6,524 nucleotides of DNA from a virus (IMGVR_UViG_2703718859_000008), one strand, 5' to 3'; numbered from the stretch's first letter, positions 226-5,111 are shown. Notes: generated by a model not told the origin, from the sequence alone. Program-made: numbers and translations.

Positions 226-417
226 ACCCACTTTTACTCCCCACTTTTCACAATTCCCCATCTCGTTAAAGGCGTGGGATTTGTAATTTTTATCATACTG
301 TTTCATAAGGATTTTTTTGCTCCCCACTTTTTGGGATGTATACAGGTCAAAAAGTGGGGGATCGTGTTTAAATTTTGTTAAATTCCCCATGCCCACCACT
401 TTTGCCCCCCACTTTTT
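226..417. repeat. iteron-like repeat cluster, putative replication origin
   Basis: Five direct copies of CCCCACTTTT or its CCACTTTT core at about 227-235, 239-248, 322-331, 396-403 and 407-416, plus one inverted copy (AAAAAGTGGGGG at 349-360). AT-rich spacers at about 281-320 and 361-390. The cluster lies immediately 3' of the helicase gene stop (416-418). Confidence 0.5.
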
Positions 418-1825
418 ACAGTGGCCCTACATCATCGCCGTCAACATAGATAACGCCGTCTTTTTCCAGCTTGCCCAGCCAGCGCCGGAAGTGCTTTATT
501 TCGTACCCCAGTTTTTTCATGTCATCACGTAACAGCGGGATCGTGCACTTGTCGCCGTTCTGTGTGCGTGAACGGATACACCCCCATAGCGCGGTATGGT
601 TTTCCGTCTTGTTGCCTGCCTCTTCGATGCGCTCCAGTTCAACGGGAGGGCGCGGCTTATCCACCACCACCAGCGACGTGATTAACTCCCCGTCAGCGTC
701 GGTAAAAAGCTCCACCACCCGCAAATCATAGGCAGCCTCTTTGAGTTCCTCCGCGTCCTTCATTTTGGTGCATGAGATAACCAGCGCTTCGCTTCCTGCG
801 TCCTCCCTGCGTATCCGGTATTCAGCATCCAGCGAAGCACGAAATGCACTGGAACCGCGCGCGCCTTTCGTCTCATCCTTGCCGGAATGGTGAACCACCA
901 GCACCGTGGCCCCTGTGCGTCGTTTCAGTTCGTCACAACCACGGATAAACGCCCCCATATCACGGGAATCATTTTCATCATTGCCACCAAAGCAACGCGC
1001 CAGAGTATCAAGAATAATCATGCGTACAGGTTTACCCGTTTCCCGCTCCACCTGACGGGCAGCGATAACCATTTCATCAACATCAAGCGGGACAGCCGGA
1101 AAGATGGGACGGTTTACCAGATACAGATTTTTCACCTGCTCACCGTGCACAACCTCCCAGGCTTTTACACGACGCGGAACGCCGATACCGCCTTCACCAA
1201 CCACATAGAGAACAGCGCCATGCGCCACCCTGCGGCCTCCCCACTGGCGGCCCGTGGAAACGTGACACGCCCACGATCCGGCAAGGAATGATTTATAGGA
1301 ACCGCTCGCCCCGTATATGCTGCAAAGCGACGATGCCGGAATAATCCCCTTTACCACGTAATCTAATTGCGTGTCGTATCCGGTAGATCCAACGCTCATC
1401 GGTAGCGTGGTTTTTCGCTGGGGGATTTTTTTCATGACCAGGCTTTCCCCGCGTTCCCATGCCTCCCTAAGCCGTGGAAGCTGGTCGCTCCATTCCTCCA
1501 GCAATTCGAAATTTTCAGAAAGTAGCCGCGCCTCCTGGACTCCGGCGATCGCCAGTTTCGTGGCGATGGTTAACAGCTGCGGCTCTTCAATATTTCCGGC
1601 GCGTATCACCGTCGCCCTGTATCGCCCATCATCAACAATCTGGAGGTTATCCAGTTCGCTTAACTGATAACGCCCCAGATAAACGGGAGGGACTGGATCT
1701 CCTGCTTTTTTTGCCTGTGCAATGATGTAATGCTCTGCGAATGAATGAGCATCAATACCCGCAAAAATAATCGCATCGGTGTATTTATCTTTCGGTAATC
1801 GTTTTACGTTCGGTGCCAGTTTCAT
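416..1825 (-). CDS. replication-associated RecA-fold ATPase/helicase (AAA_25/RepA-like) with C-terminal winged-helix-like segment
   Basis: 469-aa ORF. Walker A-like GASGSYKS, Walker B-like hydrophobic stretch ending in D (MIILDT), and VHHSGKD motif typical of RecA-like replicative helicases. AGGAG Shine-Dalgarno 6 nt upstream of the ATG. ATGA start/stop overlap with the upstream 99-aa gene. N-terminal ~150 aa not recognised. Confidence 0.75.
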   Translation of the reverse strand: MKLAPNVKRLPKDKYTDAIIFAGIDAHSFAEHYIIAQAKKAGDPVPPVYLGRYQLSELDNLQIVDDGRYRATVIRAGNIEEPQLLTIATKLAIAGVQEARLLSENFELLEEWSDQLPRLREAWERGESLVMKKIPQRKTTLPMSVGSTGYDTQLDYVVKGIIPASSLCSIYGASGSYKSFLAGSWACHVSTGRQWGGRRVAHGAVLYVVGEGGIGVPRRVKAWEVVHGEQVKNLYLVNRPIFPAVPLDVDEMVIAARQVERETGKPVRMIILDTLARCFGGNDENDSRDMGAFIRGCDELKRRTGATVLVVHHSGKDETKGARGSSAFRASLDAEYRIRREDAGSEALVISCTKMKDAEELKEAAYDLRVVELFTDADGELITSLVVVDKPRPPVELERIEEAGNKTENHTALWGCIRSRTQNGDKCTIPLLRDDMKKLGYEIKHFRRWLGKLEKDGVIYVDGDDVGPL

Positions 1826-2121
1826 TTTTTACTCCTGAATCCGTTAATCATGGTTTTCAGCTTCTGGATGTTTGCCCGTGCCCTGGCGTTGCTGGTGGGC
1901 ACGTTATGCGGCGCGGTCTGTACCAGAGAAAAATCACGCCGGAACTGATAAACAGGCATCACGCAATCATATTCGTAACCTTCACGGCGGTAAGTTACGC
2001 ACCGTCCCGCCACGCCCTTAATCATTACCGTGCCGCCGTACTGGTCGCGGTAAATATCACCGCGCGTAAATTTAGGGTGAGTGTTGCCACTGGCAGTTAA
2101 GCCAGAATATTTAAGTTTCAT
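1822..2121 (-). CDS. hypothetical small protein (99 aa)
   Basis: ORF with GGAGA Shine-Dalgarno-like motif about 10 nt upstream of the ATG. Stop overlaps the helicase start (ATGA). Sits in a same-strand overlapping gene chain. No recognisable motif. Confidence 0.55.
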   Translation of the reverse strand: MKLKYSGLTASGNTHPKFTRGDIYRDQYGGTVMIKGVAGRCVTYRREGYEYDCVMPVYQFRRDFSLVQTAPHNVPTSNARARANIQKLKTMINGFRSKK

Positions 2122-2126
2122 TATTT

Positions 2127-2360
2127 TTATTCTCCGGTGTGCTGTTCGTTATATCTGTCGTGCAATGTCTCTATTTCCTGCAACTCATTTATTACAGGCT
2201 CAAGAAGCGTTATTAATGCCGTGACAATTCTTGATTTTTGTTTGTCGCGTTCATTGTCGCCAAGTGTTTCAAGCCATATGCGCAATATTTCCAGCATGTT
2301 TTCACTGTGAGAAAGTGCAAGAAATACGCGTTCTGTTGTTTCGTGGTAAATATCACGCAT
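2127..2360 (-). CDS. hypothetical small protein (77 aa)
   Basis: ORF with GAGGATG Shine-Dalgarno-like motif 7-8 nt upstream. Start overlaps the end of the upstream gene by 8 nt. Predicted helical, acidic. No recognisable motif. Confidence 0.55.
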   Translation of the reverse strand: MRDIYHETTERVFLALSHSENMLEILRIWLETLGDNERDKQKSRIVTALITLLEPVINELQEIETLHDRYNEQHTGE

Positions 2361-2586
2361 GGCTTACATCCTCAGGAAATTTTCTTCTGTAACGCGCCTC
2401 TGCCACATATTCCGCATAATCGGCGGCGATATTCAGTACATCAAGCCCCGTTGATTTATATTCTCTCGTGGAAAGTAAGAAAAAAGCCGCTCTAATAAGT
2501 TCTGGCATTGACGAAAGCGCATCAGCCGCATCATCAGGAACGCCGGAAAATTCCTGTTTCAGGGAATTAAAACGATCATCACGCAT
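2353..2586 (-). CDS. hypothetical small protein (77 aa from ATG at 2586; ORF track extends to 2613)
   Basis: The ATG at 2586..2584 overlaps the stop of the upstream 79-aa gene in an ATGcgTGA arrangement, suggesting translational coupling. The upstream ATG at 2613 would lie deep inside the preceding gene. Confidence 0.45.
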   Translation of the reverse strand: MRDDRFNSLKQEFSGVPDDAADALSSMPELIRAAFFLLSTREYKSTGLDVLNIAADYAEYVAEARYRRKFPEDVSHA

Positions 2587-2818
2587 AACCCCCCCCATTT
2601 TCACAATCAGCAATCAGGATAGCTTTGGCCTCATTCAGCGCCATATCAGCACTAAGTTGCATAACCGCCAGCGAATGAGGGACGAAAGTCCCGGCATATT
2701 CTGTTTCACTGGTGGCGTGCTTATGTGCCCTGTCCGCGATAACAGAAATATCAATCAGCGCGTGCATCAGCGTTTTGATGGCTTCGGCGGCTGCGTCCGG
2801 TGTGGTTTTATTGTGCAT
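2579..2818 (-). CDS. hypothetical small protein (79 aa, MHNKTTPDAAAEAIKTLMHALIDISVIADRAHK...)
   Basis: C-terminal part of the 228-aa track ORF. The portion upstream of the ATG at 2818..2816 is Pro/Arg/Leu-rich and looks like off-frame translation. AGGGGGA Shine-Dalgarno about 6 nt upstream of this ATG. Confidence 0.45.
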   Translation of the reverse strand: MHNKTTPDAAAEAIKTLMHALIDISVIADRAHKHATSETEYAGTFVPHSLAVMQLSADMALNEAKAILIADCENGGGYA

Positions 2819-3368
2819 AGGTTTCCCCCTGGCGAATACGGGCGGCAAATACAGCAACACAACCGGACGGGCAACGGCTACGCGCTTCGCGTTCCGTCCA
2901 GGCGGTGACGTGGATGATTTGATGGTCTGACGCGCCAAAGATGATAAAGCGCCAGAGAAAGGCGGTTTGAGAATGTACAAGGGTAGGGATAGTAGCCATG
3001 TTGGCAGCCTCCTCAGTGTGGTTAAGATAACCGCCACCGGAAACGCCAATTTCGCTGGTGGCGGACTGTACAGGGTTGGCGTAACCGGACACTGAAGAAA
3101 CCGGCGCGGATTGCTCCGCCCCCGTACAGCCCACCATTGATAAGGTGTGACTATGCGGCACAAAAAAACACGCGGGGCGCGTGTTATGCGCTTCAGTTTT
3201 GCCCAGGACGCCAATCCCGGCACCCGTTTTATGAGGTGCGCGGGAATCATAGCTATTTTCGACACTGGCGATCAACTGGTTTTTTTCTCCGATATTCAGG
3301 GCCAGAAAACGCCACACAAAGGCCGTTTGTGTGTGTACAAGGTGTGGTATATGATTTACGGCAACCAT
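2808..3368 (-). CDS. hypothetical protein with two paralogous small modules (IPxLVHxQTAFxWRF motif twice) joined by a Gly/Ser/Ala-rich linker; possible in-frame internal start at 2999
   Basis: 186-aa ORF, first gene after the repeat-bearing intergenic region. GAGGAG Shine-Dalgarno 6 nt upstream of ATG 3368. A second in-frame ATG at 2999..2997 is preceded by GAGGAGG and begins the second copy of the motif. Differences between copies fall largely at third codon positions, consistent with protein-level conservation. Confidence 0.5.
   Translation of the reverse strand: MVAVNHIPHLVHTQTAFVWRFLALNIGEKNQLIASVENSYDSRAPHKTGAGIGVLGKTEAHNTRPACFFVPHSHTLSMVGCTGAEQSAPVSSVSGYANPVQSATSEIGVSGGGYLNHTEEAANMATIPTLVHSQTAFLWRFIIFGASDHQIIHVTAWTEREARSRCPSGCVAVFAARIRQGETYAQ
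3161..3184 (-). terminator. intrinsic-terminator-like hairpin plus T7 tract inside the coding region of the 186-aa ORF
   Basis: On the minus strand, 8-bp stem AACACGCG/CGCGTGTT with a 3-nt loop, followed by a run of T (plus-strand A7 at 3161-3167). In frame it encodes NTRPACFF. Confidence 0.3.
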
Positions 3369-3439
3369 AACGGCTCCTCGTTTACGTTGTTGGTTAGAAG
3401 CCCCGTTACTGCTCCTACAGTGCGGGGTTTCGTCTTTTC

Positions 3440-3545
3440 GTACATGAGATACACATAATCATCATGTGAGATACACGTTACATTGATGTGATATACATTT
3501 CAAGTTTTTTATATCTCACTTTACTGTATAGTGATATACACACAA
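3440..3545. promoter_or_regulatory. divergent promoter/operator region with phased GTGA(G/T)ATACAC repeats
   Basis: Direct copies at about 3445-3455 (TGAGATACACA), 3466-3476 (GTGAGATACAC), 3488-3498 (GTGATATACAT) and 3531-3543 (GTGATATACACAC), spaced about 21-22 bp or twice that. One inverted copy at 3511-3520 (ATATCTCACT). Lies between the start of the minus-strand operon (3368) and the plus-strand 100-aa gene (3563); AT-rich. Confidence 0.5.
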
Positions 3546-3562
3546 TAAACTGGTGATTAATT

Positions 3563-3865
3563 ATGTCCGTATACAAAAACGCAAAATCTCAAATGACAAC
3601 GCTCAGAGTCCCTCACGATGTCATGCAAGGCATGGAATCCGTTAAGCTGGACGGCGAGAGCAATGCAGGATTTATCGTAACCGCCATGCGCGGAGAAATA
3701 GCACGCCGCCAGGCAGAAGGCAGCGGAGAAAATCCCCTTGTGTCTTCACTGGATGCTCTGGCTAAGGTCGAACAAATCGGCATCAAAGCAGCGGAAGAAA
3801 TCGGGCAACTTGTCACCGTTGCACGCGAAGAACTCCAGCGTCGCAAGGCCAAAGAAGCGGAATAA
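3563..3865 (+). CDS. small putative DNA-binding regulator (100 aa; possible ribbon-helix-helix-like N-terminus), function unconfirmed
   Basis: Only convincing plus-strand ORF. GGTGA about 8 nt upstream of the ATG. N-terminal MTTLRVPHDV segment followed by predicted helices resembles a beta-strand-then-helix DNA-binding fold. Charged helical C-terminus. Followed by a plus-strand terminator. Confidence 0.5.
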   Translation: MSVYKNAKSQMTTLRVPHDVMQGMESVKLDGESNAGFIVTAMRGEIARRQAEGSGENPLVSSLDALAKVEQIGIKAAEEIGQLVTVAREELQRRKAKEAE

Positions 3866-3943
3866 TCCACCAGCAAACCACCACACTGATCACATTGCCC
3901 ACCAGCCAGCAAATCGCTATGATGTTCGGGCTTATGTTTAGTG

Positions 3944-3972
3944 TTTTCCCATTGGCGACCGCCCCCGGTCGC
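3944..3972 (+). terminator. rho-independent terminator for the 100-aa gene
   Basis: Stem GGCGACC (3944-3950), loop GCCCCC, stem GGTCGCC (3957-3963), followed by TTTGTTTTAT. Located between convergent genes (100-aa gene on plus, alpA-like gene on minus). Confidence 0.55.
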
Positions 3973-4000
3973 CTTTGTTTTATGTGTCATATGCTCCCCT

Positions 4001-4287: not shown

Positions 4288-4320
4288 GTGTGATATCACA
4301 CTATCGGTACGTGATATCAC
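4288..4320. promoter_or_regulatory. pair of palindromic operator-like sites (GTGTGATATCACAC and GTGATATCAC)
   Basis: Perfect 14-bp palindrome at 4288-4301 and perfect 10-bp palindrome at 4311-4320, centres about 21 bp apart. The second overlaps the stop codon of the 264-aa gene. Core resembles the repeats at 3445-3543. Confidence 0.5.
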
Positions 4321-5111
4321 TTTTGACGTTTCGGAACGTCACCAATATCACGCCCCAAATATTTCTGCCATGTCTGCCTGTGAGTGCTGGGTAGCTCAAC
4401 CCCTCTTTGCGCAGCGATAACCTCTATCATTTCTGCAATTTTGGTTACTGGTGTCTCCTCCAAATCCACATCCTGCATCTCAGGAATCAGTTTTATGAGT
4501 GCAGGTATTATCTCGGCTTTTTTAGCTATGGTTTTCGGAGATTCTCTATCACCTCCGCCATATACAGGTTTTGCCGCATAATCAAAATTCGAAAGTTCAT
4601 TTTCGAAAACGACTAATCTTTCCTCCGGAATAAACAACCCCCAAATTCCAGCTAAATATAGCTTTTTGTAATGTGCTTTTATGGTGTAAAGATGTTGTGG
4701 TTTGACGTCAACAGCATTGTGCGGACCTGATAATTCAACATCCACAAGATACTGCGACGGAATTGCAAAAAAACCCTTTAAATAATTTGCATACCAACCT
4801 GGCAGTCTGAATATCCCTGTGTCGGTATCCTCAACATAATCATCATTGTAATGAAGATAAGATATCTTATACATATCACTATCTATTACATTTCGTTCTT
4901 TTATCTGTTCAACATAATAACTTTCGCTATCATCTTCAAAAATCACTCTAGCAGAGCACTTATTCTCACTTATTAATAAGTCGTTTTCACCAATATATGC
5001 ACATATTTCAAGTCTATTGGTTGCCCCAAGATGTAGAATATCATCCACCGTGCAGCCGAGTTTTTTTGCTGCCATAGGCAAAGTATAATATACACGAGGA
5101 AAATCTTTCAT
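4317..5111 (-). CDS. uncharacterised 264-aa protein with N-terminal HTH-like segment (excisionase/AlpA-like HTH_17 pattern) and unknown C-terminal domain; AT-rich cargo gene
   Basis: AAGGTGG Shine-Dalgarno 6-7 nt upstream. ATG overlaps the integrase stop (ATGA). N-terminal YYTLPMAAKKLGCTVDDILHLGATNRLEI resembles a helix-turn-helix. Region about 4400-5100 is visibly more AT-rich than the rest of the window. Confidence 0.7.
   Translation of the reverse strand: MKDFPRVYYTLPMAAKKLGCTVDDILHLGATNRLEICAYIGENDLLISENKCSARVIFEDDSESYYVEQIKERNVIDSDMYKISYLHYNDDYVEDTDTGIFRLPGWYANYLKGFFAIPSQYLVDVELSGPHNAVDVKPQHLYTIKAHYKKLYLAGIWGLFIPEERLVVFENELSNFDYAAKPVYGGGDRESPKTIAKKAEIIPALIKLIPEMQDVDLEETPVTKIAEMIEVIAAQRGVELPSTHRQTWQKYLGRDIGDVPKRQK

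What the first reader, a model, noticed from the sequence alone, without database searches (positions are those of the whole stretch)
1822..3368. Tightly overlapping operon of five small unknown genes feeding into the helicase gene
Start and stop codons overlap by 4 to 11 nt along the whole chain (186, 79, 77, 77 and 99 aa, then helicase), implying translational coupling and fixed stoichiometry. I recognise none of the small proteins. In satellite elements this position often holds helper-phage interference or hijacking functions.
Basis: partly seen in the sequence, partly recalled or inferred. Interest (0 to 1): 0.35.

Follow-up and report, generated by a model that had tools for sequence, protein, structure and literature searches.

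The report
P4-style RNA switch heading satellite operon
The "five small unknown genes" are a phage-P4-type antisense-RNA immunity switch (two small RNA genes inside a read-through reading frame that ends in a small Icd/Kil-like gene), followed by four real small genes of unknown function chained by overlapping stop/start codons to the replication helicase of a phage satellite; this kind of control is already known, here found in a different element.

Summary
The ORFs exist at the stated coordinates. Overlaps are 11, 8 and 8 nt, then a 5-nt gap (not an overlap), then 4 nt.

The 186-aa "gene" is not a plain protein gene. It contains:
- a sigma70-like promoter (3275..3246)
- an isrK/seqA-type leader RNA with terminator (3239..3163)
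- a C4/CI antisense RNA (3141..3054)
- a 63-aa Icd/Kil-like ORF (2999..2808), whose Shine-Dalgarno is 12/12 complementary to the C4 loop

Across 76 related C4 copies the RNA helices covary. The 21 loop variants each match their own upstream and downstream targets. Phage P4 has the same anatomy: seqA-CI-seqC-kil nested in eta, then 8-nt-overlapped small genes, then the replication gene.

g2-g5 are genuine coding genes (third-codon-position excess) with conserved junction geometry; g5/helicase is ATGA in 78/78 loci. Their functions remain unknown. g5 is DUF4222, a small beta-barrel. There is no match to P4 epsilon or to defence families.

Best reading: an RNA-gated, translationally coupled early/replication operon of a PICI/cf-PICI satellite. 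This is a new member of a known kind and of moderate interest. A length-variable poly-G tract fuses or splits g2 and g3.

The parts
2808..3368 (-). Eta-like read-through ORF (186 aa). It starts upstream of the internal promoter, runs in frame through both RNA genes and ends as the Icd/Kil-like ORF.
   Evidence: The ORF is listed, and SD GAGGAG 3379..3374 plus ATG 3368 are visible. It matches phrog_6928 (202-aa profile, positions 37-194), the same family that P4 Kil/Eta matches. tblastn against P4 8521..8195 gives 31.5% over 111 aa, E 9e-7. P4 has the equivalent 199-aa ORF. Pfam Phage_ASH covers residues 40-133, which is the translation of the RNA genes. There is no codon periodicity across isrK/C4.
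3294..3368 (-). 5' remnant (about 25 codons) of a second icd/kil-type gene, now the N-terminus of the long ORF. It marks the recombination junction with the RNA cassette.
   Evidence: Alignment with C4-less relatives (L121, L131, L128, L001) is near-identical from the upstream leader through codon ~25, then homology stops. The Nterm186 tblastn pattern agrees.
3246..3275 (-). Sigma70-like promoter TTGATC-18-TATGAT (P4 PLE-like), 7 nt upstream of the isrK 5' end.
   Evidence: Consensus scan. The same motif lies at a constant 134-137 nt upstream of C4 in 27 of 33 first-type cassettes.
3163..3239 (-). isrK / P4 seqA-type leader RNA, with upstream targets b1 (TTGGCGT 3214..3208) and a1 (ACTGAAG 3197..3191) and an intrinsic terminator (hairpin 3185..3167 plus a U-run).
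   Evidence: Rfam RF01394 66 bits against a gathering score of 50. The terminator scan is. a1 and b1 covary with the C4 loop and tail across relatives.
3054..3141 (-). C4 / P4 CI-type antisense RNA, with a' loop UUUCUUCAGUGU and b' UACGCCAA.
   Evidence: Rfam RF01695 77.6 bits against a gathering score of 45. My own CM scores it at 92 bits. Helix covariation is 96-100% paired, with 10 and 6 pairs carrying double changes and 0/500 shuffles reaching the observed score. The predicted fold is -46.9 kcal/mol.
3008..3049 (-). Downstream targets: b2 TTGGCGT 3049..3043 and a2 ACACTGAGGAGG 3019..3008. a2 contains the Shine-Dalgarno of the Icd/Kil-like ORF.
   Evidence: The a' loop pairs 12/12 with a2 (duplex -20.1 kcal/mol against -9.9+-2.2 for shuffles) and b' gives -15.0. 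There are 21 distinct a' loops, each with a cognate a2 at +33..+38 (mean 10.05 nt against 5.28 non-cognate), and 10 b' types with cognate b2.
2808..2999 (-). Icd/Kil-like ORF (63 aa), the first independently initiated ORF downstream of the RNA genes.
   Evidence: NF033153 3.6e-16. It matches phrog_1743, as P4 Kil does. Variable sites by codon position are 12/14/30.
2579..2818 (-). g2 (79 aa), unknown function. It overlaps the icd stop by 11 nt.
   Evidence: It matches phrog_2512 (N-half) and phrog_5146. Codon-position variability is 25/23/47. It is not homologous to P4 epsilon.
2589..2596 (-). Poly-G tract (8 G) just before the g2 stop / g3 start. Its length decides whether g2 and g3 are separate or fused.
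   Evidence: The census gives 6G:1, 7G:19, 8G:31, 9G:19, 10G:4, 11G:2 in distinct contexts. All three frames occur in complete E. coli genomes.
2353..2586 (-). g3 (77 aa), unknown function. It has an 8-nt ATGCGTGA overlap with g2.
   Evidence: It matches phrog_2512 (C-half) and phrog_24341. All 122 protein clusters are from E. coli/Shigella and none has a Pfam domain. Codon-position variability is 28/21/41.
2127..2360 (-). g4 (77 aa), unknown function. It has an 8-nt ATGCGTGA overlap with g3.
   Evidence: It matches phrog_2196. Codon-position variability is 25/20/37.
1822..2121 (-). g5 (99 aa), DUF4222: a small beta-barrel plus a C-terminal helix. It lies after a 5-nt gap from g4 and has an ATGA overlap with the helicase start.
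   Evidence: PF13973 2e-23. The AF2 model has pLDDT 77 with the core above 90. It gives only generic KOW/SH3-like matches. The g5/helicase junction is -4 in 78/78 loci.
416..1825 (-). RepA-family (AAA_25, RecA-fold) replicative helicase, the last gene of the chain.
   Evidence: PF13481 2e-43. It matches phrog_2850. PGAP names it 'helicase RepA family protein' in L001/L002.
228..417 (.). Iterons CCCCACTTTT(T), about 6 copies in both orientations, directly 3' of the helicase stop: the probable replication origin.
   Evidence: the repeat finder.
3445..3556 (.). Operator-like repeats TGAGATACAC/TGATATACAC in the divergent region between ylcI (+) and the operon (-). This is the probable site of the upstream (PLL-like) control.
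   Evidence: the repeat finder. No function was tested.

Best explanation
The region is the early/replication operon of a P4-like-regulated PICI/cf-PICI satellite, and it is gated by a P4/P1-type antisense-RNA immunity cassette.

In the repressed route, an internal constitutive promoter (3275..3246) makes a leader. Most of it stops at the isrK/seqA terminator, and the rest is processed to a stable C4/CI RNA (3141..3054). The a' loop and b' tail of that RNA pair with b2/a2 (3049..3008), which bury the Shine-Dalgarno of the 63-aa Icd/Kil-like ORF. The a1/b1 copies in the leader are the second, upstream target. Without translation of that first ORF, the downstream cistrons are not expressed. g2, g3, g4, g5 and the RepA helicase are joined by 11-, 8-, 8-, (+5)- and 4-nt junctions, so the loss comes from failed coupling and Rho polarity. 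The satellite therefore does not replicate.

In the induced route, transcripts starting further upstream carry the SD and ATG at 3368. Ribosomes reading the 186-aa Eta-like frame run straight through the terminator, the C4 sequence and the a2/b2 site, which makes expression immunity-insensitive. P4 eta does this for PLL transcripts.

Shown here: the anatomy, RNA family membership, helix covariation, target covariation, coding status and junction conservation, and the parallel with P4. Inferred: processing, repression, polarity, the bypass, and the functions of the proteins. I take Icd/Kil-like to be a growth or division inhibitor, g5 a small beta-barrel accessory of the replication protein, and g2-g4 fast-evolving accessory proteins.
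For: RNA and cassette evidence:
- Rfam hits for isrK and C4 are above their gathering scores.
- The C4 structure is supported by compensatory changes in 76 copies.
- There are 21 a' loop variants and 10 b' variants. Each matches its own a2/b2 at fixed distance over the SD of an ORF whose ATG is at +52..+59, and its own a1/b1 upstream.
- Duplex energies are -20.1 and -15.0 kcal/mol, against about -9.7 for shuffles.
- The promoter-like site is at a constant distance from C4, and the intrinsic terminator lies inside the long ORF.
- There is no codon periodicity over isrK/C4 (14/15/13 and 15/14/16 variable columns by codon position), but clear periodicity in icd and g2-g5.

Parallel with P4:
- P4 shows the same order isrK-C4-SD-kil inside a 199-aa ORF, followed by 8-nt overlapped genes and the replication gene.
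- P4 and the window share PHROG families 6928 and 1743.

Conservation of the design:
- In sister cassettes ORF continuity is kept, with 297 nt retained through three different indel combinations, while the encoded amino acids change completely.
- The same C4 -> short ORF -> 8-nt overlaps -> primase-helicase design occurs in Pectobacterium and in 17 of 80 helicase loci of other genera.
- Junction geometry is conserved.

Experimental precedents:
- Gifsy-1 isrK-orf45-anrP.
- P1 c4-icd-ant.
- Own knowledge: Citron & Schuster 1990; Biere et al. 1992; Deho et al. 1992; Forti et al. 1999.
Against: - Nothing here shows the RNAs are made, processed or repress anything.
- About half of sister elements (32 of 69) lack any C4 cassette and have icd directly behind the upstream leader. 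The RNA gate is therefore dispensable for the operon.
- g4/g5 are separated by 5 nt and every gene has its own SD-like sequence, so coupling may be partial.
- The published model for E. coli PICI/cf-PICI induction needs only AlpA.
- In the window the long ORF's 5' end is a recombination remnant, and two of three frames are open across this GC-rich stretch. Its openness could therefore be accidental.
- BLASTP between the Icd-like ORF and P4 Kil finds no pairwise alignment.
- g5 identity does not track the identity of the replication protein's N-terminus. This weakens the idea of a specific partnership.
Confidence: 0.7

Rival explanations
1. The 186-aa ORF is an ordinary protein gene (an 'Ash family' or transcriptional-regulator protein) and the RNA-family hits are incidental. 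Under this reading the chain is simply five small proteins plus the helicase.
For: The ORF is open, has a good SD and start, matches Pfam Phage_ASH and matches phrog_29966 over its full length. The frame in phase with icd is open through C4 in all E. coli-type cassettes.
Against: Helix and target covariation show selection on RNA pairing. There is no third-position excess in the isrK/C4 part. In sister cassettes the amino-acid sequence across C4 changes frame entirely while only the length is preserved. A promoter-like site and an intrinsic terminator lie inside the ORF. PGAP splits the same sequence into an 'ash' pseudogene plus a separate Icd-like gene. The N-terminus is a remnant of another icd gene.
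Confidence: 0.08
2. g2-g5 (or some of them) are helper-phage hijacking or interference factors, such as a helper derepressor like P4 epsilon. They are placed early so that they act as soon as immunity is lifted.
For: g2 occupies the position of P4 epsilon, directly after kil with an overlapping start. g2-g4 are mosaic, variably present and restricted to E. coli/Shigella, as expected for arms-race genes.
Against: There is no homology to epsilon. There are no PADLOC hits and no functional annotation in PHROGs. There is no experimental link.
Confidence: 0.3
3. g2-g5 are replication accessory proteins for the RepA helicase (loader, origin binder or initiator partners). Coupling would ensure co-production.
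For: g5 (DUF4222) abuts the replication gene with ATGA in 78/78 loci, even where the rest of the replication protein is a different enzyme. It has a small beta-barrel fold typical of nucleic-acid or protein binders. Origin-like iterons lie just downstream.
Against: g2, g3 and g4 are often absent or swapped. g5 similarity does not track similarity of the replication protein's N-terminus. The fold matches are generic, with E >= 8e-3.
Confidence: 0.35
4. The overlaps are only genome compaction typical of phage DNA, with no regulatory coupling. Each gene is translated independently.
For: Each start has its own SD-like sequence. One junction is a gap. Overlapping stops and starts are common in phage operons (general knowledge).
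Against: The exact junction geometry is conserved while the flanking coding sequence diverges. The same 8-nt ATGnnTGA/TAA design is found in P4 and Pectobacterium. Coupling has been shown experimentally in the homologous isrK-orf45-anrP locus.
Confidence: 0.15

Closest known systems
Satellite phage P4 immunity region and left operon (PLL/PLE - seqA - cI RNA - seqC - kil nested in eta - epsilon - orf151 - orf106 - alpha)
   Same: The order and spacing are the same: an alpA-like gene upstream, a promoter, the isrK/seqA leader with terminator, the C4/CI RNA, a target over the SD of a ~65-aa first ORF, that ORF nested in a ~190-200-aa frame starting upstream of the promoter, then small genes with 8-nt overlaps, then the replication gene. 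The PHROG families for Kil and Eta are shared.
   Different: The downstream small genes are unrelated (g2 against epsilon: probability 0.4%). The replication protein is a RepA/AAA_25 helicase, not the P4 alpha primase-helicase. A divergent ylcI gene separates alpA from the operon. The long ORF's start is a remnant of another icd/kil gene. In the nearest relative the element carries a capsid/packaging module instead of P4 sid/psu/delta.
Phage P1/P7 immI operon (c4 RNA - icd - ant1/2)
   Same: Both have a C4 RNA with a'/b' pairing to a1/b1 and a2/b2, with a2/b2 over the icd ribosome-binding site. Both have an Icd-like first ORF, a downstream gene dependent on icd translation, and specificity variants that give heteroimmunity (own knowledge: Citron & Schuster 1990).
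   Different: The controlled cargo is a replication operon, not an antirepressor. The host element is a chromosomal satellite, not a plasmid prophage.
Salmonella Gifsy-1 isrK - orf45 - anrP locus
   Same: Both have an isrK promoter and terminator, with read-through to a processed C4-like RNA (STnc1160). Both have a small upstream ORF whose translation is needed for the next gene.
   Different: There the short IsrK RNA acts as an activator of orf45 translation, and the cargo is an antirepressor leading to AntQ toxicity. Whether the window's isrK-like RNA activates, titrates C4 or only terminates is unknown.
E. coli PICIs and capsid-forming PICIs (EcCICFT073, EcCIEDL933)
   Same: Both have the int - alpA - rep backbone. 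The nearest relative (98.3% identity) has capsid, protease, portal, connector, HNH and TerS/TerL genes without tail genes.
   Different: Published induction models invoke AlpA only. C4/isrK hits in Gram-negative PICIs were mentioned in a single sentence (PMC10111431) and were not analysed.

Membership tests
C4 antisense RNA / P4 CI RNA (Rfam RF01695) | Covariance-model score at or above the family gathering score | tested here: met
   The score is 77.6 bits against 45, E 1.9e-14, with a full-length match at 3141..3054.
C4 antisense RNA / P4 CI RNA (Rfam RF01695) | A long closing helix plus two internal hairpins, supported by compensatory changes | tested here: met
   In A2, 96% of cells are paired and 10 pairs carry double changes. 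In A3, 100% are paired and 6 pairs carry double changes. Slid controls give 31-53% paired, and 0/500 shuffles reach the observed score.
C4 antisense RNA / P4 CI RNA (Rfam RF01695) | Loop a' and tail b' are complementary to a downstream site that covers the RBS of the first ORF and to an upstream copy | tested here: met
   The pairing is 12/12 with ACACUGAGGAGG (SD) and 7/7 with UUGGCGU, and upstream a1/b1 are present. The targets covary over 21 a' and 10 b' types.
C4 antisense RNA / P4 CI RNA (Rfam RF01695) | The RNA is cut out of the leader transcript (RNase P) and represses in trans | not testable with these tools
   This needs Northern blots or RNA-seq and reporter assays.
isrK / P4 seqA leader (Rfam RF01394) | Score above the gathering score, two 5' hairpins and a Rho-independent terminator directly upstream of C4 | tested here: met
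   The score is 66 bits against 50. The terminator hairpin 3185..3167 plus U-run is.
isrK / P4 seqA leader (Rfam RF01394) | Its own promoter immediately upstream (PisrK / PLE) | tested here: inconclusive
   There is a consensus match TTGATC-18-TATGAT ending 7 nt before the RNA 5' end, at a constant distance in 27/33 relatives. No transcription data are available.
P4 kil/eta nested genes | A short first ORF (about 65 aa) forms the 3' part of a longer in-frame ORF that begins upstream of the internal promoter | tested here: met
   The 63-aa ORF 2999..2808 lies inside the 186-aa ORF from 3368, and the promoter-like site is at 3275..3246. The P4 equivalent is 65 aa inside 199 aa.
P4 kil/eta nested genes | Sequence relationship to P4 Kil/Eta | tested here: inconclusive
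   Both fall in the same PHROGs, 1743 and 6928, and tblastn gives 31.5% over 111 aa, E 9e-7. BLASTP of the 63-aa ORF against Kil finds nothing. Much of the similarity lies in the RNA-encoding part.
P4 kil/eta nested genes | Translation of the long ORF suppresses immunity-dependent (Rho) termination | not testable with these tools
   Only indirect evidence exists: ORF length is preserved through compensating indels in sister cassettes.
Icd-like protein (NCBIfam NF033153) | HMM score above the curated cut-off | tested here: met
   The score is 58.9 bits against 25 for the 63-aa ORF.
Icd-like protein (NCBIfam NF033153) | Inhibits host cell division when expressed | not testable with these tools
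   This is known for P1 Icd and, for cell killing, P4 Kil (own knowledge). It was not tested for this protein.
DUF4222 (Pfam PF13973) | HMM score above the gathering score | tested here: met
   The score is 82.1 bits against 27 for g5.
P4 epsilon (helper derepression protein) | Homology of the gene that follows kil | tested here: not met
   BLASTP finds only a 22-aa patch. hhalign gives probability 0.4%. The PHROG families differ.
Capsid-forming PICI | An int, alpA and rep backbone | tested here: met
   The integrase ORF is, Phage_AlpA is, and the RepA-family helicase is.
Capsid-forming PICI | Its own capsid, portal, protease, connector and terminase genes, with no tail genes | not testable with these tools
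   This lies outside the window. It is present in the nearest relative L001 (98.3% identity, 94% coverage). Another relative (L002) has a different head module.
Known anti-phage defence systems (PADLOC) | Any protein of the chain matching a defence model | tested here: not met
   There are no hits for icd, g2-g5 or the helicase at E <= 0.1.

The most novel reading that the evidence does not exclude
C4/CI-type RNA immunity would be a modular, exchangeable control layer of enterobacterial PICI/cf-PICI replication operons. It comes in 0, 1 or 2 tandem cassettes and at least 21 pairing specificities. It would set satellite-to-satellite (and phage-to-satellite) heteroimmunity, and it would be overridden by ribosomes reading an Eta-like frame whose only selected property is that it stays open. 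In addition, a hypermutable poly-G tract would toggle g2 and g3 between separate and fused proteins. This would add an RNA layer to the current AlpA-only induction model for these satellites.
Probability: 0.35. Interest if true: 0.55.

Novelty: new member of a known kind. Interest (0 to 1): 0.35.

Why it matters
The published induction models I found for E. coli PICIs and cf-PICIs invoke only AlpA. If the C4/isrK cassette works as in P4, about half of these satellites would carry an additional RNA immunity switch in front of their replication genes. That switch has many specificities, which predicts exclusion groups among co-resident satellites and prophages. It also predicts a translation-dependent bypass at induction.

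There is an annotation point as well. Pfam Phage_ASH and PGAP 'ash family protein' largely describe the translation of an RNA gene region. Gene callers therefore report one long ORF where the biology is two RNAs plus a nested small ORF.

The four downstream small proteins remain uncharacterised. They are the obvious candidates for early satellite functions.

Tried and rejected
1. I first read the 186-aa ORF as a pure gene-calling artefact over RNA genes. I revised this after the P4 comparison and the evidence for frame-preserving indels. It is better described as an Eta-like read-through frame.
2. I tested g2 as a homologue of P4 epsilon and rejected it.
3. The 264-aa protein next to int has the same length as P4 cII, but there is no similarity.
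4. PADLOC defence models gave no hits.
5. PDB sequence searches for g5 and for the helicase gave no hits.
6. A fold search with the g5 model gave only generic small-barrel matches (KOW/SH3/Tudor), with E >= 8e-3 and TM <= 0.45, so no function can be drawn from it.
7. I looked for coevolution between g5 and the N-terminus of the replication protein. It is not seen: g5 is 96% identical where the N-terminus is 46%.
8. Very long in-frame ORFs (up to 800 aa) upstream of some cassettes appear to be shadow frames antisense to ylcI/alpA. I did not use them as evidence.
9. Papers on P1 icd (PMC204598) and P4 eta/kil were not held in the library. Those points rest on my own knowledge.
10. I did not use the second structure-prediction job. 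g2-g4 are short helical proteins for which fold matches would be uninformative.

Full report
**Observation.** They are 3368..2808 (186 aa), 2818..2579 (79 aa, g2), 2586..2353 (77 aa, g3), 2360..2127 (77 aa, g4), 2121..1822 (99 aa, g5) and 1825..416 (469 aa). The junctions are an 11-nt overlap, two 8-nt ATGCGTGA overlaps, a 5-nt gap between g4 and g5 (not an overlap), and a 4-nt ATGA overlap into the helicase gene.

**Context.** The window is the left arm of an integrated satellite.
- On the minus strand it carries a tyrosine integrase, a 264-aa unknown protein and AlpA (PF05930).
- A divergent YlcI/YnfO-family gene follows on the plus strand, and then the operon in question.
- The closest complete genome (E. 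coli S19-141, 98.3% identity over 94% of the window) continues past the helicase. It carries SSB, PerC, major capsid, prohead protease, portal, head closure, connector, HNH and TerS/TerL genes, has no tail genes, and sits between rcnR and thiM. That is the capsid-forming PICI layout.
- Parts of the window occur in 2338 of 5426 complete E. coli genomes.

**What the 186-aa ORF contains.**
- *RNA genes:* Rfam finds an isrK RNA at 3239..3163 (66 bits; gathering score 50) and a C4 antisense RNA at 3141..3054 (77.6 bits; gathering score 45).
- *Transcription signals:* A sigma70-like promoter, TTGATC-18-TATGAT (3275..3246), ends 7 nt before the isrK 5' end. The isrK 3' hairpin plus U-run (3185..3167) scores as an intrinsic terminator.
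- *Nested ORF:* Downstream, an SD (GAGGAGG) and an ATG at 2999 open a 63-aa ORF that matches the Icd-like family NF033153 (3.6e-16).
- *Pfam hit:* The Pfam hit of the long ORF, Phage_ASH, covers residues 40-133, exactly the translated RNA genes.
- *PGAP annotation:* In a relative with an identical sequence, PGAP annotates an 'ash family' pseudogene plus a separate Icd-like gene.
- *N-terminal remnant:* The first ~25 codons of the long ORF are nearly identical to the leader, SD and N-terminus of the icd gene in sister elements that lack the RNA cassette. Homology stops near 3294, where the cassette begins. The long ORF is therefore a recombinant: an icd 5' remnant, then promoter-isrK-C4, then a complete icd.

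**Is the RNA cassette functional?** I built a covariance model. It recovered 54 C4 copies in E. coli/IMG-VR loci and 22 in helicase-anchored loci from Pectobacterium, Morganella, Serratia, Pantoea, Dickeya, Lonsdalea and Citrobacter.
- *Helix covariation:* The helices are 96% and 100% paired. They have 10 and 6 pairs with changes on both sides, and no shuffle out of 500 reaches the observed covariation. Slid controls give 31-53% paired.
- *Downstream targets:* The hairpin-2 loop (a') is hypervariable, with 21 distinct sequences. Each has an 8-12-nt complement at +33..+38 after the C4 3' end. That complement overlaps the GGAG(G) of an ORF whose ATG is at +52..+59 (cognate mean 10.05 nt, non-cognate 5.28).
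- *Tail and upstream targets:* The single-stranded tail (b') has 10 variants, each matched at +2..+6. Both a' and b' have matching upstream copies, at -56..-69 and -73..-82.
- *In the window:* a' UUUCUUCAGUGU pairs 12/12 with ACACUGAGGAGG (3019..3008), at -20.1 kcal/mol against -9.9+-2.2 for shuffles. b' pairs with UUGGCGU at 3049..3043 and at 3214..3208.
- *Codon periodicity:* Variable columns sorted by codon position of the long ORF show no periodicity in isrK (14/15/13) or C4 (15/14/16). They show the usual third-position excess in icd (14/14/29).

**The P4 parallel.** Phage P4 (NC_001609) has the same anatomy on its left operon.
- ORF88 (AlpA-like) comes first. Then come an isrK hit (8692..8615, the seqA region), a C4 hit (8507..8420, the CI RNA), and SD-ATG kil.
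- Epsilon and orf151 follow, each overlapping its predecessor by 8 nt. Then come orf106 and the alpha replication gene.
- A 199-aa frame starting with three ATGs over the ORF88 stop runs through seqA and CI into kil.
- From my own knowledge (Forti et al. 1999, J Bacteriol; Deho et al. 1992; Ghisotti et al. 1992), that frame is eta. Kil is the first gene translated from the constitutive PLE promoter and is under CI control. Translation of eta on transcripts from the upstream PLL promoter prevents immunity-dependent Rho termination.
- The window's 63-aa ORF and P4 Kil share phrog_1743. The 186-aa ORF and P4 Kil/Eta share phrog_6928. tblastn gives 31.5% over 111 aa.

This changed my first reading, which was 'artefact over RNA genes'. 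The long frame is best seen as Eta-like.

Sister 'second' cassettes support selection on openness rather than on sequence. Their long frame starts with an ATG overlapping the preceding icd stop (ATGCGTAA). It keeps exactly 297 nt to the next icd ATG in 8 of 8 aligned examples, despite three different indel combinations. The ~38 codons between the indels encode completely different amino acids.

A Pectobacterium locus shows the same logic in another form. The alpA stop overlaps the start of a long frame running through C4. A 22-aa ORF sits behind the a2 SD. An ATGTATGA overlap leads to a 61-aa ORF, and an ATGAGTAA overlap leads to a 678-aa primase-helicase.

**The four remaining small genes.**
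- *Coding status:* g2-g5 are real genes. Variable sites by codon position are 25/23/47, 28/21/41, 25/20/37 and 52/43/72.
- *Conserved junctions:* g5/helicase is -4 in 78/78 loci, g4/g5 is +5 in 21/21, and icd/g2 is -11 in 13 of the 17 scored icd/g2 junctions; the other four have an extra gene between them. g2/g3 is -8 or -28 and g3/g4 is -8 or +1.
- *No internal terminator:* No terminator-like site lies between icd and the helicase start on this strand.
- *Family matches:* Function is not resolved. g2, g3 and g4 hit only PHROGs of unknown function. g3 has 122 protein clusters, all from E. coli/Shigella. Nothing matches PADLOC.
- *g5:* g5 is DUF4222. Its model is a five-stranded small barrel plus a C-terminal helix (pLDDT 77, core above 90). 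It has only generic KOW/SH3-like neighbours (best E 8e-3).
- *g2 and epsilon:* g2 sits where P4 epsilon sits but is not homologous to it.
- *Mosaicism:* g2-g4 are mosaic and variably present, whereas g5 always abuts the replication gene.

**Mechanism proposed.**
- *Repressed state:* The internal promoter gives isrK-like and C4 RNAs. C4 masks the icd SD, and the untranslated leader is terminated. The coupled chain down to the helicase stays silent, so the satellite does not replicate.
- *Induced state:* Transcripts from the divergent upstream region (operator-like repeats at 3445..3556) carry the ATG at 3368. Ribosomes on the Eta-like frame override the terminator and the antisense site and deliver translation into g2-g5 and the helicase. 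The helicase then acts on the iterons just downstream (228..417).
- *Shown versus inferred:* The anatomy, covariation and conservation are shown. RNA processing, repression, polarity and bypass are inferred from P4, P1 and Gifsy-1 isrK-orf45-anrP, where translational coupling through the small ORF was demonstrated.
- *Caveat:* Of 69 comparable loci, 32 have no C4, 29 have one and 8 have two. The gate is therefore optional and modular.

**Novelty.** That Rfam C4 and isrK hit some Gram-negative PICIs, and correspond to P4 CI/seqA, was stated in one sentence by Mageeney et al. 2023 (PMC10111431). The cf-PICI papers discuss only AlpA. This is therefore a new member of a known kind. The added value is the dissection of the ORF, the 21 covarying specificities and the Eta-like frame. 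Interest is moderate.

Noticed in passing
window 2589..2596 (- strand): There is an 8-G homopolymer immediately before the g2 stop / g3 start. In relatives with identical flanks the run is 6-11 G (7G:19, 8G:31, 9G:19). 7 or 10 G fuse g2 and g3 into one ~154-aa protein (phrog_2512). 8 or 11 G give two genes with an ATGCGTGA overlap. 6 or 9 G extend g2 by 7 codons. All three states occur in complete E. coli genomes: 7G in O157:H7, 8G in Nissle 1917, 9G in S19-141. This could be a hypermutable switch, a slippage site or partly sequencing error.
   Followed up: partly
window 2353..2360 and 2579..2586; L116 3885..3915: The g2/g3 and g3/g4 junctions share the sequence ATGCGTGAT, and both g3 and g4 start MRD. 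One relative joins g2 directly to g4 through it, and database proteins include g3-g4 hybrids (P0198). It looks like a recombination joint for shuffling small-gene modules.
   Followed up: partly
window 228..417: About six copies of the iteron CCCCACTTTT(T), in both orientations, lie directly 3' of the helicase stop codon. This is the probable origin of replication of the element.
   Followed up: no
window 3445..3556: There are four to five operator-like repeats, TGAGATACAC/TGATATACAC, with 22-nt spacing, in the divergent region between ylcI and the operon. This is a candidate binding site for the regulator of the upstream promoter.
   Followed up: no
L086, L091, L092, L094, L096, L098, L102, L110, L116 (IMG/VR); L065 (Morganella): Some elements carry two tandem C4-icd cassettes with different pairing specificities. 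The second long frame starts with an ATG overlapping the first icd stop (ATGCGTAA). Other elements have none.
   Followed up: partly
window 3054..3250 (residues 40-133 of the 186-aa ORF): Pfam PF10554 (Phage_ASH), the PGAP name 'ash family protein' and several PHROGs labelled 'transcriptional regulator/repressor' match the conceptual translation of the isrK-C4 RNA region. These protein families appear to be built largely on an RNA gene.
   Followed up: partly
window 3613..3990 (- strand): A 125-aa ORF lies antisense to the YlcI/YnfO gene. In some relatives it is continuous with the Eta-like frame, giving apparent ORFs of 400-800 aa. It is most likely a shadow frame, not a gene.
   Followed up: no
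window 4317..5111 (- strand): A 264-aa protein is translationally overlapped with the integrase stop. It has no family match in Pfam, NCBIfam or PHROGs. It occupies the place, and has the same length, as P4 cII, but shows no detectable similarity to it.
   Followed up: partly
L055 1008..1828; L065 877..1316: STAXI and EFASI structured RNAs lie upstream of alpA in the Pectobacterium and Morganella elements that also carry C4. The window has neither.
   Followed up: no
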